Made by a program: the position numbers. 64,000 nucleotides of DNA from Ylistrum balloti (lineage: Eukaryota). The stretch is from assembly GCF_031769215.1 (NCBI RefSeq), contig NW_026782308.1, forward strand, positions 372,001 through 436,000, in the 5' to 3' direction. This document shows, piece after piece, positions 57,001 through 64,000 of the stretch. Within the stretch, counting starts at the first letter, position 1; each line of letters opens with the position of its first letter.

Positions 57001-60000
57001 ACATCGAGTAAGTGTAGAAATACTTAAATGTTTCTAACTTACCTGTGTAGGTTATATATGTGATTCCTTTTCGTATGTAGGTGAGAAGGTGATGTATACC
57101 TGGACAAAGACTCAGGTAGATATACCGGCACTCGTCTGTCTCATAGATATATGTACAAACATAGGAGGTAAGTAAATACAAACAGATCAAAAACACGATC
57201 TCCGCGACACACAAGCCGTCTAACAATGCCTATAACAGTTGTCCTTGTCGATGCAATGCCTTGAGATTTTAGTGCCTCTTCTAAGGTATCGCGCCATTAA
57301 TTTGTAGCATAGTTAGTCTCGCTCTCGGGAAGGGAAACACAAACCGATATCATTGTTCATTTCCTGTTCAATTCACAACATAAAAATGTGTTGATTCGAA
57401 ATTACCACAATTGATTAAGTGTAATTAAATGACGCGTTCGGTGTGAGGTAGGTATAAGTCTCAATATGTTGACAAGCTGCAGCAGCTTGGGGTTTCTCAC
57501 GGGTTGGTTATTAATATTGGGTGTTATAGATCTATAACATTATCTTGTTACAGTGTTAAACTGCCTAATGATGCGTCATACCAATCACTCCCCAGCAATT
57601 TATTCTAGCGTGCGTACTTATTACAAACAACTCGCTCCACTGCTCCCACCAACAGCCATATCTACCGAAAATCTCGCTTAATGAGTTCTTTTTAAAGTCT
57701 GATCTAAATTTAATGCGCATGTTTTAATGGGCTGGTTATTTTATGTAAACTTTTCAATAAAACTGTTTTTTTTAATTCAAAAGAAATAGCACTATGCATA
57801 CAGGCCATTATAGCATAGCCATGTTAAAGCCCCGTTATAGATTGTTTTAAATATTCCCGCGTTTCGGTAGTATAGCGGGAATAGTTCGTCTTCTCAGGCA
57901 CGTAGAGCACGTGCGTATGCCCAGGTAAGGGTGGGTGCGCGGGTGAATAGTCATTCTCTAGCTCTCCGTCTAGCAGTGCAGTCCAGTTAATGTCTCTATC
58001 ATATATATAGTATCATAGTTTCTACCATGCAGAACGATTCATTATGCACACTGTCGGACCAGATACAGGCTGCGGTTGGAAAGTCACAAAACGAAATACT
58101 CGGGCATTTGGATACATTAATTTCACAAAAGTTGAGCTCGTTTGAGAGAAAAATGTGTGAAAATTCTGAGGCATCTTTAAACAAGATACAAGAAACAATT
58201 CAGTGTACGGATACCTACAAATTCAAAAAGAGAAGTTGCGAGGAACAGTACAAGTTCAATACCAAAGTGCGCGGGAAATTATTGGACGCCGCGCAGGCCG
58301 TCAGTACGGACATGGACACCGCCAGGCTTAAGATACAGGAGGGTATGTCGCTTATAGACTATCGCAACAAGCTAATTAAGTTGGCGGACAGTTCTGAAGC
58401 AGGCTGGAAAACCGTCGATGAGTATGTAGCAAATCCTATAGCGTCGGACTCCGACGATGAAAGGAAAATCGACAGGGCCAGCTCCAAGGCAGTTAAAAAG
58501 GCAAAGGCGGAAAAGTTAAAGTCCAGCAGGGGAAGACAGCGTTTCAACCCTTATCAAAGAGAGACTTTTGTGTCCAGGAGCCAGACAAACGCCGCTACTA
58601 CGACCGACAGAACAGGTCCTTTCCCACGGGGCGGGACCAAGCCCGGTACATGCTTTGGGTGTGGAAAGGCCGGACATTGGCGACAAGAGTGTCCGGAAAT
58701 CAAAGGAGTCGCCTCGGCTGTATCCGGATATAAGATAAGTGGTTCTTTATTTGATATGCATGAAAAAGTATCGGCGAAGCAGGACGCAGGTAAGGTAGGG
58801 GCGACACAGGACGCTCCACGTGTCACATGTGATACTTCGCCAGTGGGGCGCTTGAAGGGTAAGAGCCAGTATTGGGCAGACCAAGGTACCATTGAAGTAG
58901 TACAATCTATCATCGAGAGAGGTTATAAAATTCCTTTTCACGAAATTCCACCAAGGGTGTCTTTGTCAAATAACAAAACCGCAAAAGATAACCCCGATTT
59001 TGTCGTGGGGGAGATAACTAAGCTTTTACGGTTAGGTTGTGTGTCGGAAGTTTCGTCAGAGCCCGCGGTCATAAATCCGCTCACTGTAGCTTTCAATCAA
59101 TCAGGTAAGCCCCGCCTAGTTTTGGATTGCAGGCACATAAACCCTTTTTTGCATAAATTCAAGTTTAAATACGACGATGCAAGGGTAGCACGGGATGTTT
59201 TCCAGCCAGGAGATTTTTTGTTCACTTTTGATTTGAAGTCTGCTTACCACCATATCGAAATTTTTGAAGAGCACAGGCAATTTCTCGGTTTTGAGTTTGA
59301 AGTGGAAGGCAAAACACGCCAGTTTGTTTTCAATGTGTTACCGTTTGGTATCTCTACTGCTGGTTACGTGTTTACCAAGGTTCTAAGGGAGGTGGTCAAA
59401 TCTATCCGTTTATTAGGTCACAAATTGGTCATGTATTTGGACGACGGTATTGGAGGTCACGAGACAGAGGGCGGGGCTAACGAGTCCAGTAGGTATGTCA
59501 GACAGGCATTGATCGATTACGGTTTTCTCATAGCCGAGGAGAAGTCCAATTGGGTAGCTTCCCAGCATGTCACGTGGTTAGGTTACACGTGGTCGACGGG
59601 AGAAGGCGTGGTCAGGGTCACGTCGGGTCGTGTCGAGCGGCTTTTGTATTGGCTGACCAATACGATGACACATGTCAAACAGAAAGACCTGCCTTTGCTC
59701 TCGGCCAGGTACATAGCGGGCATAGTAGGTCAGGTCATATCAATGCAAGGTGTTGTCGGTCACGTGGCTAGACTACGTACACGGGAGTTGTACAGGTGTG
59801 TATTGGCTAGAGCCAGTTGGAATGCGCGTGTTTTGCTCACGTCGGGAGCTCTAGACGAGATCCAATTTTGGTTGTCTAACGTAAAGGCACTGAACGATAA
59901 GGGTTCACAGTTAAAGCAACACCTAGTCTGTGACGCCATACTTTGTACTGATGCATCCGGTGAGGGATACGGGGGTTATGTTCAATATGTGGACACATCA

Positions 60001-63000: not shown

Positions 63001-64000
63001 CCATGTATTATTAAACGCCTACTGCACTAATTCGTGACGGGCTAGTACGGCAAATGAGTATTTGCGGGTTTGAGTTTTCTTTTCGGGCACGAAGTGGAGA
63101 GAAGACTGTGAAGGTCTATGGATGGTGAAGGGAGAGACAAATCTCATCACACATTCGGGACGTGGTGTGTACTACATTATTTTGGTCTATGGGTGATGAA
63201 GGGAGAGACAAATCTCACCACACATTCGGGACGTGGTGAGAATATTGTGAAGGTCTATGGATGGTGAAGGGAGAGACAAATCTCATCACACATTCGGGAC
63301 GTGGTGTGTACTACATTATTTAGGTCTATGGGTGGTGAAGGGAGAGACAAATCTCACCACACATTCGGGACGTGGTGTGTACAACATTATGAAGGTCTTG
63401 GGTGGGACAAATCTCACCACACATGGTGAATAGAAGGAGATGGTGAAGGGAGAACAAATCTCATCACACATTCGGGACGTGGTGTGTACTACATTATTTA
63501 GGTGTGTATCGGGACGTGGTGTGAACATTATGGATGGTAACGTGGTGTGTCTATGGGTGGTGAAGGGAGAGACAAATCTCACCACACATTCGGGACGTGG
63601 TGAGAATATTGTGAAGGTCTATGGATGGTGAAGGGAGAGACAAATCTCATCACACATTCGGGACGTGGTGTGTACAACATTATTTAGGTCTATGGGTGGT
63701 GAAGGGAGAGACAAATCTCACCACACATTCGGGACGGGGTGTGTACAACATTATGTACGTCTATGGGTGTTGAAGGTAGAGACAAAACTCATCACACATT
63801 CTGGACGTGGTGTGAATATTGTGACTTTGGATGGTGTGTACGTGGTGTGTACTACATTATTTGAAGGAAGAGGTCTATGGGTGGTGAAGGGAGAGACAAA
63901 TCTCATCACACATTCGGGACGTGGTGTGAATATTGTGAAGGTCTATGGATGGTGAAGGGAGAGACAAATCTCATCACACATTCAGGTCGTGGTGTGAGTA

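What the first reader, a model, noticed from the sequence alone, without database searches (positions are those of the whole stretch)
57847..63107. Apparently intact, very young PAT-like YR retrotransposon with a single Gag-RT-RH-MT ORF
Seen: both repeat pairs read as 100% identical, both ORFs are uninterrupted, and all RT, RNase H and YR catalytic motifs are present, whereas every other element in the window is decayed. Known: DIRS1-like elements have inverted repeats plus an ICR; PAT-like and Ngaro elements have split direct repeats; the MT domain is typical of DIRS1/PAT rather than Ngaro. In well-studied members Gag is usually a separate ORF. Inference: a potentially active family, and an RT-plus-recombinase integration system that makes no double-strand break or TSD.
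Basis: partly seen in the sequence, partly recalled or inferred. Interest (0 to 1): 0.72.

Follow-up and report, generated by a model that had tools for sequence, protein, structure and literature searches.

The report
Intact Pat1-like retrotransposon in a scallop
A complete, apparently recent copy of an uncommon kind of jumping gene, one that copies itself through RNA and re-inserts with a tyrosine recombinase, sits in this scallop genome; the kind is already known, so it is a clean specimen and not a new system.

Summary
At 57847-63107 (+) there is a 5261-bp element with split direct repeats. A1 and A2 are 145 nt and B1 and B2 are 81 nt; both pairs are 100% identical. It carries an open 1054-aa ORF (CCHC knuckle, RT, RNase H, Dam-like methyltransferase fold) and an open tyrosine-recombinase ORF. 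All catalytic residues are present, and there are no inverted terminal repeats and no target duplication.

ORF1 is identical to a RefSeq protein of the scallop Ylistrum balloti. The next relatives are 55% identical and are widespread in bivalves and sea urchins. The layout is the published "echinoderm-form Pat1-like" (PAT-like, DIRS order), so this is a new member of a known kind.

- **Fused Gag-RT ORF:** it is the norm among the relatives found, not a peculiarity.
- **"Very young":** the 226 identical repeat bases bound the age only loosely. Only one copy was seen.
- **Recombinase expression (new lead):** the conserved N-terminus lies upstream of its first ATG and starts at a splice-acceptor-like site. 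Gene models in other bivalves join Gag to the recombinase at that point, which suggests a spliced Gag-recombinase mRNA.
- **RNase H insert (new lead):** a disordered insert of about 125 aa sits at a site that varies widely in length across the family.

The parts
57847..63107 (+). Whole element, 5261 bp, GC 0.464 against 0.355 in the 1 kb to its left
   Evidence: Bounds are set by the outer ends of the A1 and B2 repeats. GC. Flanks show no duplication...gattgtt|TTAAAT... and ...GAAGACT|gtgaagg....
57847..57991 (+). Repeat A1 (145 nt), 5' terminal
   Evidence: 100% identical to A2.
58027..61191 (+). ORF1, 1054 aa, unbroken: Gag-like part, RT, RNase H, methyltransferase-like domain
   Evidence: 100% identical to XP_060081899.1 of Ylistrum balloti.
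58027..58806 (+). Gag-like region: long predicted helices (aa 4-169), disordered linkers, CCHC knuckle (aa 207-224 = 58645-58698)
   Evidence: Pfam zf-CCHC. AF2 model mean pLDDT 79.7. No PDB fold match, best E 5.4. CCHC columns conserved in 101-104 of 119 relatives.
59212..59589 (+). Reverse transcriptase core (Pfam RVT_1 aa 396-521; YLDD at aa 470-473)
   Evidence: D472 identical in 118/119 relatives and D473 in 117/119. Weak PDB sequence matches to HIV and Ty3 RT.
59935..60726 (+). RNase H domain (aa 637-900; D642, E822, D847, D896), split by a long loop
   Evidence: Foldseek matches to RNase H1 structures, e.g. 4e19_B at E 7.7e-5.
60004..60378 (+). In-frame, predicted-disordered insert in RNase H (aa 660-784) at a site of variable length in the family
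   Evidence: pLDDT below 50 over these residues. D-to-E spacing is 179 against a median of 38 in 113 relatives. No homologues.
60733..61188 (+). Methyltransferase-like domain (aa 903-1054), Dam/PCIF1-type fold, motif VPPP at aa 967-970
   Evidence: Pfam Dam E 0.0087. Foldseek: PCIF1 6irw_B E 1e-5 and phage Dam methyltransferases E 2.7e-7. Motif columns.
61185..62261 (+). Recombinase reading frame, unbroken. The frame opens at 61185, the first ATG is at 61335, and the conserved coding starts near 61249
   Evidence: Cre-like active site. Pfam Phage_integrase aa 174-338 = 61707-62201.
59105..61248 (+). Candidate intron (inferred): donor CAG|gtaagc at ORF1 codon 360, acceptor tract ...ttattgttacAG at 61247-61248, both phase 1. 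Removing it would fuse Gag plus the first part of RT to the recombinase
   Evidence: The Mizuhopecten model XP_021365071.1 matches ORF1 9-360 and then the recombinase frame 22-358. The exons were compared one at a time and were not joined.
62345..62425 (+). Repeat B1 (81 nt), internal
   Evidence: 100% identical to B2.
62425..62569 (+). Repeat A2 (145 nt), internal, abutting B1 with one shared T
62417..62473 (+). Nested hairpin across the B|A junction: GAGAAGAC/GTCTTCTC enclosing AAATATTCCCGC/GCGGGAATAGTT
   Evidence: DNA fold of 62345-62569 gives -40.7 kcal/mol, z -5.69, with 0 of 200 shuffles as stable.
62570..63026 (+). Non-coding spacer (457 nt) between A2 and B2. It holds the only AATAAA or ATTAAA hexamer on the + strand within 57847-63200 (ATTAAA at 63010-63015)
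   Evidence: The minus-strand ORF 62635-62958 has no Pfam match.
63027..63107 (+). Repeat B2 (81 nt), 3' terminal

Best explanation
This is a structurally intact, recently inserted copy of an echinoderm-form Pat1-like (PAT-like, DIRS order) tyrosine-recombinase retrotransposon in the scallop Ylistrum balloti.

Shown here:
- the A1 - ORF1 - ORF2 - B1A2 - spacer - B2 layout with perfect repeats;
- an unbroken Gag(CCHC)-RT-RNase H-methyltransferase ORF;
- an unbroken Cre-like recombinase ORF with a full active site;
- no LTRs, no inverted terminal repeats and no target duplication.

Inferred from published models for split-repeat elements:
- A full-length RNA begins in A1 and ends at or just inside B2. 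The only poly(A)-type hexamer lies 17 nt before B2.
- ORF1 makes the nucleic-acid-binding and reverse-transcribing protein.
- The internal B1A2 junction serves as the template that restores and joins the two incomplete ends of the cDNA.
- The recombinase inserts that DNA by site-specific strand exchange at the B|A junction, which leaves no duplication.

Inferred here (about 0.55): the recombinase is made mainly from a spliced subgenomic RNA. The donor is at ORF1 codon 360 and the acceptor at 61248. The product would be a fusion of Gag and the first part of RT to the recombinase. The reason is that its conserved N-terminal 29 residues have no ATG of their own.

The insert of about 125 aa in RNase H is read as a tolerated disordered loop, not as damage.
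For: - Repeats and order.
- Open ORFs.
- Domains.
- Active sites.
- Methyltransferase fold.
- No inverted terminal repeats: searches found only 15-23-nt imperfect internal pairs.
- No duplication at the flanks.
- Host and relatives: one search gave 171 proteins at E <= 0.001. The best non-self hit is 55% identical. Named hits come from scallops, oysters, mussels, sea urchins, a sponge and a hemichordate.
- Published definition of the layout: PMC4157794, PMC6681497 and PMC3266345 (passages read).

Splice lead:
- Identity to the window rises from 0.06 (frame residues 11-20) to 0.38 (21-30) in 78 relatives that extend upstream of the ATG.
- The three best-scoring GT donors in ORF1 are all in the one phase that fits the acceptor (crude matrix recalled by me).
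- 6 of 13 longer gene models join an ORF1-like part to the recombinase exactly at frame residue 22. The Mizuhopecten model uses the same ORF1 codon as the window's donor.
- Locus L001 has G|GTAAGC and ...cgacAG|GC at the same two places.
- A -1 frameshift is unlikely. The recombinase frame is open for only 7 nt before the ORF1 stop, and I see no slippery site there (my reading).

Insert tolerated:
- 34 of 114 family members have 70 or more residues between the RNase H D and E residues.
- The rest of the domain models at pLDDT 80-98.
Against: - No transcript, circle or second identical copy was seen. ORF1 is alone in its 90% cluster on one contig, so activity is unproven.
- The repeats are short, so zero differences bound the age only loosely.
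- No promoter was identified. The only TATA-like string (58002) lies too close to the ATG.
- Against the splice: 18 of 119 relatives' proteins, including 8 of 16 named models examined, start exactly at the methionine aligned to the window's first ATG. Other fused models use different donors (ORF1 aa 858, 922, 948, 1034) and may be software constructs. Only 5 of 9 loci have GT at the donor codon, where GGT-AAR also simply encodes Gly-Lys. Only 1 of 9 loci could be aligned at the acceptor.
- The methyltransferase motif reads [V/C]PP[P/V/I] in the family. It is not the (D/N)PP(Y/F/W) that I recall for active N6-adenine methyltransferases, so that domain may not methylate.
- The element abuts a satellite on one side only, which is unexplained.
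- In relative L006 only an A-type pair was found and no B pair.
Confidence: 0.85

Rival explanations
1. Same element, but the recombinase is translated from its own ATG (61335) as a 308-aa protein from unspliced or internally initiated RNA. On this reading the upstream conserved stretch and the fused gene models are by-products of annotation.
For: The NCBI model for this very locus is the 308-aa form (P0121). 18 of 119 relatives begin at the aligned methionine, including 8 of 16 named models examined. Donor positions differ among the fused models.
Against: Residues 22-50 of the frame are conserved as protein (0.38, 0.38 and 0.24 identity per 10-residue block, against 0.06 just upstream) in 78 relatives. 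They are 29 of 32 identical in the 91% relative P0257. The conservation edge coincides with a pyrimidine tract plus AG. Six independent models place a junction exactly there.
Confidence: 0.4
2. Intact-looking but dead: open frames and perfect repeats reflect recent insertion only. The element cannot complete its cycle because of the insert of about 125 aa inside RNase H and/or the non-canonical methyltransferase motif.
For: The D-to-E spacing is 179, against a family median of 38. The insert has no relatives. The motif is VPPP. Only one copy was seen.
Against: Long inserts at the same site occur in 34 of 114 members with otherwise conserved domains. The VPPP-type motif is the family norm: V in 77 and C in 21 of 119 at the first column, P in 99 and 100 at the next two. 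All catalytic residues are present. The frame stays open through 125 or more extra codons.
Confidence: 0.2
3. The perfect repeat identity is not a sign of youth. It comes from assembly polishing or from gene conversion between the repeats.
For: The repeats are short (145 and 81 nt) and lie within 5 kb of each other. I had no read-level data.
Against: Both ORFs are also unbroken over 4.2 kb. GC differs sharply from the flank. Both points fit a recent arrival.
Confidence: 0.08
4. A domesticated host gene derived from such an element and kept open by host selection.
For: It is annotated as an ordinary gene, and only one copy was seen.
Against: The complete non-coding repeat architecture, with 226 nt of perfect identity and a structured junction, would not be preserved by selection on a host protein. 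No orthologue above 55% identity was found in other scallops.
Confidence: 0.03
5. A DIRS1-like or Ngaro element, not a PAT-like one.
For: All three share RT, RNase H and a tyrosine recombinase. Ngaro also has split direct repeats.
Against: There are no inverted terminal repeats and no internal complementary region. A Dam-type methyltransferase fold is present, which Ngaro lacks by definition (PMC4157794, passages).
Confidence: 0.03

Closest known systems
Echinoderm-form Pat1-like elements (SpPat1 of Strongylocentrotus purpuratus; also reported in Lottia gigantea, Nematostella vectensis, Romanomermis culicivorax; PMC4157794, passages)
   Same: Gag with zinc knuckle, RT, RNase H, methyltransferase domain and a recombinase in the same orientation. 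[quoted passage not shown] Sea-urchin proteins are among the relatives (P0072, 40-47% identical).
   Different: New host (a pectinid bivalve). The nearest protein in the databases is only 55% identical. It has a long disordered RNase H insert. I could not fetch SpPat1 itself, so identity to it is unmeasured.
Nematode-form Pat1 (Panagrellus redivivus Pat1)
   Same: Same domain set, split direct repeats and a zinc knuckle in Gag (PMC4157794, passages).
   Different: In the nematode form the internal repeats lie between the methyltransferase and the recombinase. Here they lie after the recombinase.
DIRS-1 of Dictyostelium discoideum and DIRS1-like elements (including mollusc LgDIRS and AcaDIRS; PMC3266345, PMC7192593, passages)
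   Same: RT, RNase H, methyltransferase and tyrosine recombinase. No target duplication. An internal sequence that matches the joined termini.
   Different: DIRS1-like elements have inverted terminal repeats plus an internal complementary region, and often long ORF overlaps. Here the repeats are direct and the ORFs overlap by 4 nt.
Ngaro elements
   Same: Split direct repeats A1 ... B1A2 ... B2 with the internal pair downstream of the recombinase.
   Different: Ngaro lacks the methyltransferase domain. Here a Dam-type fold is present.
Cre recombinase of phage P1 (best solved-structure match to ORF2)
   Same: Alignment over residues 78-340 with R, K, H, R, W and Y at the active-site positions.
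   Different: E-value is only 1.5e-4. The host is a eukaryote, and the presumed substrate is the element's own B|A junction rather than a lox-type site centred on a palindrome.
Spliced subgenomic mRNAs of retroviruses (analogy only; recalled knowledge)
   Same: If the splice is real, one transcript would serve both as the genome and, after splicing, as the messenger for a downstream gene.
   Different: The product here would be an N-terminal Gag fusion to a recombinase, not an envelope protein. No transcript evidence was available.

Membership tests
PAT-like / Pat1-like (DIRS order) | RT/RNase H and a tyrosine recombinase encoded in one element | tested here: met
   Pfam RVT_1, RT_RNaseH and Phage_integrase. 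Active sites complete.
PAT-like / Pat1-like (DIRS order) | Methyltransferase-like domain after RNase H | tested here: met
   Foldseek: phage N6-adenine methyltransferases E 2.7e-7 and PCIF1 E 1e-5. Pfam Dam reaches only E 0.0087 in the window. By my count of the table, precomputed PF05869 is carried by 47 of the 119 listed relatives. Catalytic competence is doubtful because the motif is VPPP.
PAT-like / Pat1-like (DIRS order) | Split direct repeats A1 ... B1A2 ... B2 with A1 = A2 and B1 = B2 | tested here: met
   145/145 and 81/81 identical, in the canonical order.
Echinoderm-form Pat1-like | Internal repeats downstream of the recombinase, which has the same orientation as RT | tested here: met
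   The recombinase ends at 62261 and B1A2 lies at 62345-62569. All are on the + strand.
Echinoderm-form Pat1-like | Zinc-finger motif in Gag | tested here: met
   zf-CCHC at aa 207-224. The columns are conserved in 101-104 of 119 relatives.
Echinoderm-form Pat1-like | RT and recombinase group with Pat1/SpPat1 references in a phylogeny | not testable with these tools
   No tool gives Repbase or Dfam references, and no hit carries a Pat1 name. There is only indirect support: sea-urchin and mollusc relatives.
DIRS1-like | Inverted terminal repeats plus an internal complementary region | tested here: not met
   Only five imperfect 15-23-nt internal pairs were found and none is terminal. One search found none either.
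Ngaro | Absence of the methyltransferase domain | tested here: not met
   A Dam-type fold is present.
LTR retrotransposons (Gypsy/BEL/Copia) | Long terminal repeats, aspartic protease, DDE integrase, 4-6-bp target duplication | tested here: not met
   No protease or rve domain in Pfam. The repeats are split, not terminal pairs. No duplication at the flanks.
Tyrosine recombinases (Cre/Xer-like) | R-K-H-R-(H/W)-Y active site | tested here: met
   R191, K218, H305, R308, W331 and Y340 align to the Cre positions. The Cre residue numbers are recalled.

The most novel reading that the evidence does not exclude
Pat1-like elements of bivalves, this one included, express their recombinase the way retroviruses express downstream genes. 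A conserved phase-1 donor in early RT and a conserved acceptor just before the recombinase would remove RT, RNase H and the methyltransferase from part of the transcripts. The product would be a Gag-recombinase fusion that could carry the integrating enzyme on the nucleic-acid-binding protein. In addition, the family keeps a fast-evolving disordered insert inside RNase H whose role is unknown. I found no description of either feature in the searched library (listings only). The founding papers by Goodwin & Poulter and by Poulter & Butler were not available to me and may mention one or both.
Probability: 0.5. Interest if true: 0.55.

Novelty: new member of a known kind. Interest (0 to 1): 0.38.

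Why it matters
Tyrosine-recombinase retrotransposons are the least understood retroelements. Only DIRS-1 of Dictyostelium has been followed experimentally (PMC7192593, passages), and nothing comparable exists for the split-repeat (PAT/Ngaro) types.

An unbroken copy with perfect repeats in a sequenced, farmed animal group gives a clean reference for three things: the exact termini, the structured B|A junction, and the coding layout.

If the Gag-recombinase splice is real, it would be a new point of convergence between these elements and retroviruses. It would also explain how a recombinase ORF without its own start codon is expressed.

For genome annotation, the case shows that such elements are currently filed as 'uncharacterized protein' host genes. 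It also shows that their relatives turn up in contigs binned as bacterial or archaeal genomes.

Tried and rejected
1. **B repeat resembles the flanking satellite (target homology).** Rejected. The local alignment score is 19, and 53 of 200 shuffles reach it. The same holds for A, for the junction and for the spacer.

2. **Left flank is a degenerate satellite monomer.** Rejected. The satellite occurs nowhere else in the window: 0 of 13 hits fall outside 63000-64000.

3. **RNase H insert is a duplication of neighbouring ORF1 sequence, or is shared with close relatives.** Not above shuffles. For example, 26 of 300 shuffles match the score against ORF1 1-655, and 13 of 300 against the variable region of P0002. 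A search of 1.84 billion representatives gave only 4 weak hits, best E 1.7e-8, to long multi-stretch proteins.

4. **-1 frameshift or stop-start coupling for the recombinase.** The frame opens only 7 nt before the ORF1 stop, and I see no slippery heptamer or AUG there (my reading).

5. **A short intron near the ORF1 end, as in two Pinctada/Mytilus models.** There is no good donor there in the window.

6. **Capsid-like fold for Gag.** No PDB match; best E 5.4.

7. **Sequence-level PDB relative for the methyltransferase domain.** None; E >= 0.84.

8. **Rfam families and tRNA genes in or near the element.** None.

9. **Empty-site comparison in relative L006.** The left boundary falls at the first base of its A1. 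The right boundary could not be placed, and no B pair of 20 nt or more was found.

11. **Promoter.** Not identified.

- search of the Y. balloti genome for further copies;
- comparison with Repbase or Dfam;
- the metagenome and viral contig collections (closed);
- supplements of PMC4157794 and PMC3266345, which may list the mollusc Pat1-like sequences.
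Full report
**What is there.** Between 57847 and 63107 on the + strand lies a 5261-bp unit whose GC content (0.464) stands out from the 0.355 of the kilobase to its left.
- It has two pairs of direct repeats. A is 145 nt (57847-57991 and 62425-62569). B is 81 nt (62345-62425 and 63027-63107).
- Both pairs are 100% identical by blastn. The repeat finder stretched B to 88 nt at 97%.
- B1 and A2 abut and share a single T. The order is A1 - coding region - B1A2 - 457-nt spacer - B2.
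- Two long ORFs fill the body: 58027-61191 (1054 aa) and 61188-62261, in the -1 frame relative to the first and overlapping it by 4 nt.
- Neither ORF contains a stop or a frameshift. The window has no N.

**Host and relatives.**
- ORF1 is 100% identical over its whole length to XP_060081899.1, 'uncharacterized protein LOC132561188' of the scallop Ylistrum balloti. It is the only member of its 90% cluster and was seen on one contig. The window is therefore scallop, not human.
- The search gave 171 proteins at E <= 0.001, of which 120 were listed. The next best are 53-55% identical (66% for one shorter Mizuhopecten model). Named hits come from Pecten maximus, Argopecten irradians, Mizuhopecten yessoensis, oysters, mussels, sea urchins, a sponge and a hemichordate.
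- The recombinase search gave 655 proteins at E <= 0.001. Its 90% cluster holds one further sequence, P0257, from an unnamed contig. P0257 is 313/344 identical with 330/344 positives. That is the only sign of a second close lineage.
- No other DIRS-like coding remnant is in the window: 0 of 234 tblastn HSPs fall outside the element.

**Domains and active sites.**
- Pfam finds a CCHC knuckle (aa 207-224), RVT_1 (396-521, E 6.7e-16), RT_RNaseH (808-872), a sub-threshold Dam match (903-970, E 0.0087) and Phage_integrase in ORF2 (E 1.5e-9).
- I aligned ORF1 with 119 relatives. The RT aspartates D472 and D473 are identical in 118 and 117 of 119. The RNase H residues are identical as follows: D642 in 117 of 117, E822 in 113 of 114, D847 in 111 of 114 and D896 in 108 of 111 occupied positions.
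- The best solved-structure relative of ORF2 is Cre (E 1.5e-4). R191, K218, H305, R308, W331 and Y340 sit on the Cre active-site positions (Cre numbering recalled).

**The RNase H insert.**
- The catalytic D and E of RNase H are 179 residues apart here. In the 113 of 119 relatives where both align, the median is 38, the quartiles are 34, 38 and 78, and the maximum is 289.
- Only 12-14 of 119 relatives align to ORF1 residues 676-775.
- An AlphaFold2 model of aa 590-1054, built from a 72-row alignment (mean pLDDT 76.3), gives pLDDT below 50 and no secondary structure for aa 660-784. Elsewhere the ten-residue block means are 80-98.
- The extra part has no relatives. There were 4 weak hits among 1.84 billion representatives. 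It has no similarity above shuffles to the rest of ORF1 or to the variable regions of six relatives.
- 34 of 114 family members, counting the window, carry 70 or more residues at this site. Their extra parts match each other in only 11 of 561 pairs, and none matches the window's.
- I read this as a tolerated, fast-evolving disordered loop and not as damage. I could not exclude that part of it is removed from some transcripts.

**The methyltransferase-like domain and Gag.**
- Foldseek of the same model finds the cap-specific adenosine methyltransferase PCIF1 (6irw_B, E 1e-5, 186 columns), followed by RNase H1 structures.
- Among viral models it finds phage N6-adenine methyltransferases. Examples are Shigella phage 2019SD1 at E 2.7e-7 and an unnamed 153-aa protein at E 1.9e-7 with target TM-score 0.71.
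- Sequence search against the PDB finds nothing. The fold is therefore Dam-like, as the literature says for DIRS and PAT elements.
- The position where I recall (D/N)PP(Y/F/W) in active enzymes reads VPPP. In the family the counts are V 77 / C 21, P 99, P 100, and P 77 / V 10 / I 9 of 119. Catalysis is therefore doubtful, but the motif is conserved.
- The Gag-like part models as long helices (aa 4-169), disordered linkers and the knuckle. It has no fold match in the PDB, best E 5.4. 'Gag' rests on position and the knuckle only.
- The CCHC columns are conserved in 101-104 of 119 relatives that also hold RT. The fused ORF is therefore the family norm among proteins of 579-1845 aa. The Atlas also shows mollusc clusters of stand-alone CCHC proteins of 216-276 aa (a lead only).

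**How the recombinase is expressed.**
- The recombinase frame opens at 61185, only 7 nt before the ORF1 stop. Its first ATG is at 61335, which is frame residue 51.
- In 78 relatives whose proteins extend upstream, identity to the window per ten residues is 0.05 and 0.06 for residues 1-20. It then jumps to 0.38, 0.38 and 0.24 for residues 21-50, against 0.40-0.66 further on.
- The edge coincides with ...tgttttactgtgtttattgttacAG|GC at 61247-61248, which looks like a 3' splice site in phase 1.
- I scored all GT sites in ORF1 with a crude donor matrix recalled from memory. The three best (58790, 59105, 60542) are all in phase 1, the only phase that reads into the recombinase frame.
- I compared longer gene models of other bivalves with ORF1 and with the recombinase frame separately. 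In 6 of 13 the ORF1-like part is joined to the recombinase exactly at frame residue 22, through a shared glycine.
  - In 4 of 13 the start of the match falls at residues 15-20, with overlapping alignments.
  - In 3 of 13 the match starts at residue 58.
- The Mizuhopecten model XP_021365071.1 (718 aa) matches ORF1 9-360 and then frame residues 22-358. It uses the same codon as the window's donor at 59105. The Mytilus trossulus model P0162 switches 4-5 codons earlier.
- At DNA level, 5 of 9 related loci have GGT-AA at the donor codon. Only L001 could be aligned at the acceptor, and it has ...cgacAG|GC there.
- Against the splice:
  - 18 of 119 relatives start at the aligned methionine, including 8 of 16 named models examined.
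  - Other fused models use different donors.
  - GGT-AAR also simply encodes Gly-Lys.
- I put the splice at about 0.55.

**Termini and surroundings.**
- The flanks read ...gattgtt|TTAAAT... and ...GAAGACT|gtgaagg..., so there is no duplication beyond the single ambiguous T that also sits at the internal B|A junction.
- The junction lies inside a nested hairpin (62417-62473): GAGAAGAC/GTCTTCTC around AAATATTCCCGC/GCGGGAATAGTT. The 225-nt B1A2 unit folds at -40.7 kcal/mol, z -5.69, and 0 of 200 shuffles do as well.
- Within 57847-63200 the + strand holds a single AATAAA or ATTAAA hexamer: ATTAAA at 63010, 17 nt before B2. This fits a transcript that ends at the start of B2. That reading is an inference.
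- No promoter could be named. No inverted terminal repeats exist. No Rfam family or tRNA gene is present.
- To the right, from 63108 to the end of the window, runs a 68-71-bp satellite. It has no similarity to B, A, the spacer or the left flank, and it occurs nowhere else in the window. Why the element sits exactly at its edge is unexplained.

**Age and activity.**
- Zero differences in 226 nt give, by my arithmetic, a 95% upper bound of t < 3.0/(2 x 226 x mu). That is about 0.7-7 million years for assumed rates of 1e-8 to 1e-9 per site per year. The rates are assumed and come from no tool.
- Together with 4.2 kb of unbroken coding sequence, this fits a recent insertion but does not date it closely.
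- I could not search the Y. balloti genome. Copy number and polymorphism remain unknown.

**Classification and literature.** All of the following were read as passages only.
- PMC4157794 defines PAT elements by split direct repeats plus a methyltransferase domain. It separates a nematode form from an 'echinoderm form' whose internal repeats lie after the recombinase and whose Gag has a zinc finger. It reports the echinoderm form in S. purpuratus, Lottia gigantea, Nematostella and a nematode.
- PMC6681497 and PMC3266345 give the same structural contrast with DIRS1-like elements (inverted repeats plus an internal complementary region) and with Ngaro (no methyltransferase).
- PMC7192593 shows for DIRS-1 that the internal complementary region is needed for retrotransposition and that the cDNA is mostly linear and single-stranded.
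- Every structural criterion of the echinoderm-form Pat1-like group is met here. The phylogenetic criterion could not be tested because no reference sequences can be fetched.
- Searches for splicing in these elements returned no listed title or abstract describing it (for the field in general). I did not read those papers in full. The papers of Goodwin & Poulter and of Poulter & Butler are outside the library.
- Searches on the host species and on bivalve DIRS found no description of this family (listings only).

**Relatives at DNA level.**
- The one genome-contig scan returned 9 loci, all from records labelled as bacterial or archaeal MAGs. These are most likely animal DNA in the bins.
- L003 holds two copies tail to tail. 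L001, L006 and L007 have their ORFs in several pieces.
- L006 has an A-type pair (211 nt, 100%, 5339 nt apart). By comparison with a paralogous uninterrupted unit, its left boundary falls at the first base of A1. No B pair was found, and the right boundary could not be placed.

**Verdict.** The finding is real and correctly classified. It is an intact new member of a known kind, with two leads worth a specialist's look: the probable Gag-recombinase splice and the length-variable RNase H insert.

Noticed in passing
window 63108-64000: A 68-71-bp satellite (GC 0.458) starts at the first base after the element and runs to the window end. It is unrelated to the element's repeats and to the left flank, and it is absent from the rest of the window.
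   Followed up: partly
window 39329-40354 (-): A 341-aa open frame with BACK (E 5.5e-14) and PHR (E 5.7e-10) domains and the end of a BTB domain. It is probably an exon of a BTB-BACK-PHR host gene.
   Followed up: partly
window 8747-9673, 22391-23522, 31698-34614, 36211-37199, 43192-43477, 54213-55872: The window is rich in tandem arrays: 30 bp x 31, 145/290/435 bp, 47 bp x 62, 32 bp x 31, 50 bp x 5.7 and 34 bp x 49. The long ORFs at 8712-9752 on both strands lie in the 30-bp array and are probably artefacts of it.
   Followed up: no
L001-L009: Relatives of this animal retroelement sit in contigs filed as bacterial or archaeal MAGs (Sedimenticola, Thiodiazotropha, Sansalvadorimonas, Nitrosopumilaceae, Poribacteria and others). 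Some of the contigs are 0.2-2.6 Mb long. This is most likely host DNA in the bins.
   Followed up: no
L003 145-9277: Two copies of a relative (1005-aa ORF1 plus a recombinase of about 325 aa) lie tail to tail in one 9.4-kb contig. This may be a fold-back assembly artefact.
   Followed up: no
L005 11131-11534; L007 10963-11181: Short tandem repeats (23-nt and about 46-nt units) lie just after the ORF1 match and before the recombinase match in two distant relatives.
   Followed up: no
window 58027-58806 (ORF1 aa 1-260): The Atlas shows mollusc clusters of stand-alone CCHC proteins of 216-276 aa resembling this part (scores 0.94-0.95). Relatives with a separate Gag ORF therefore probably exist. 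The length is close to the window's phase-1 donor at codon 255.
   Followed up: no
window 62635-62958 (-): A 107-aa minus-strand ORF lies in the spacer between A2 and B2. It has no Pfam match and is probably a chance ORF.
   Followed up: partly
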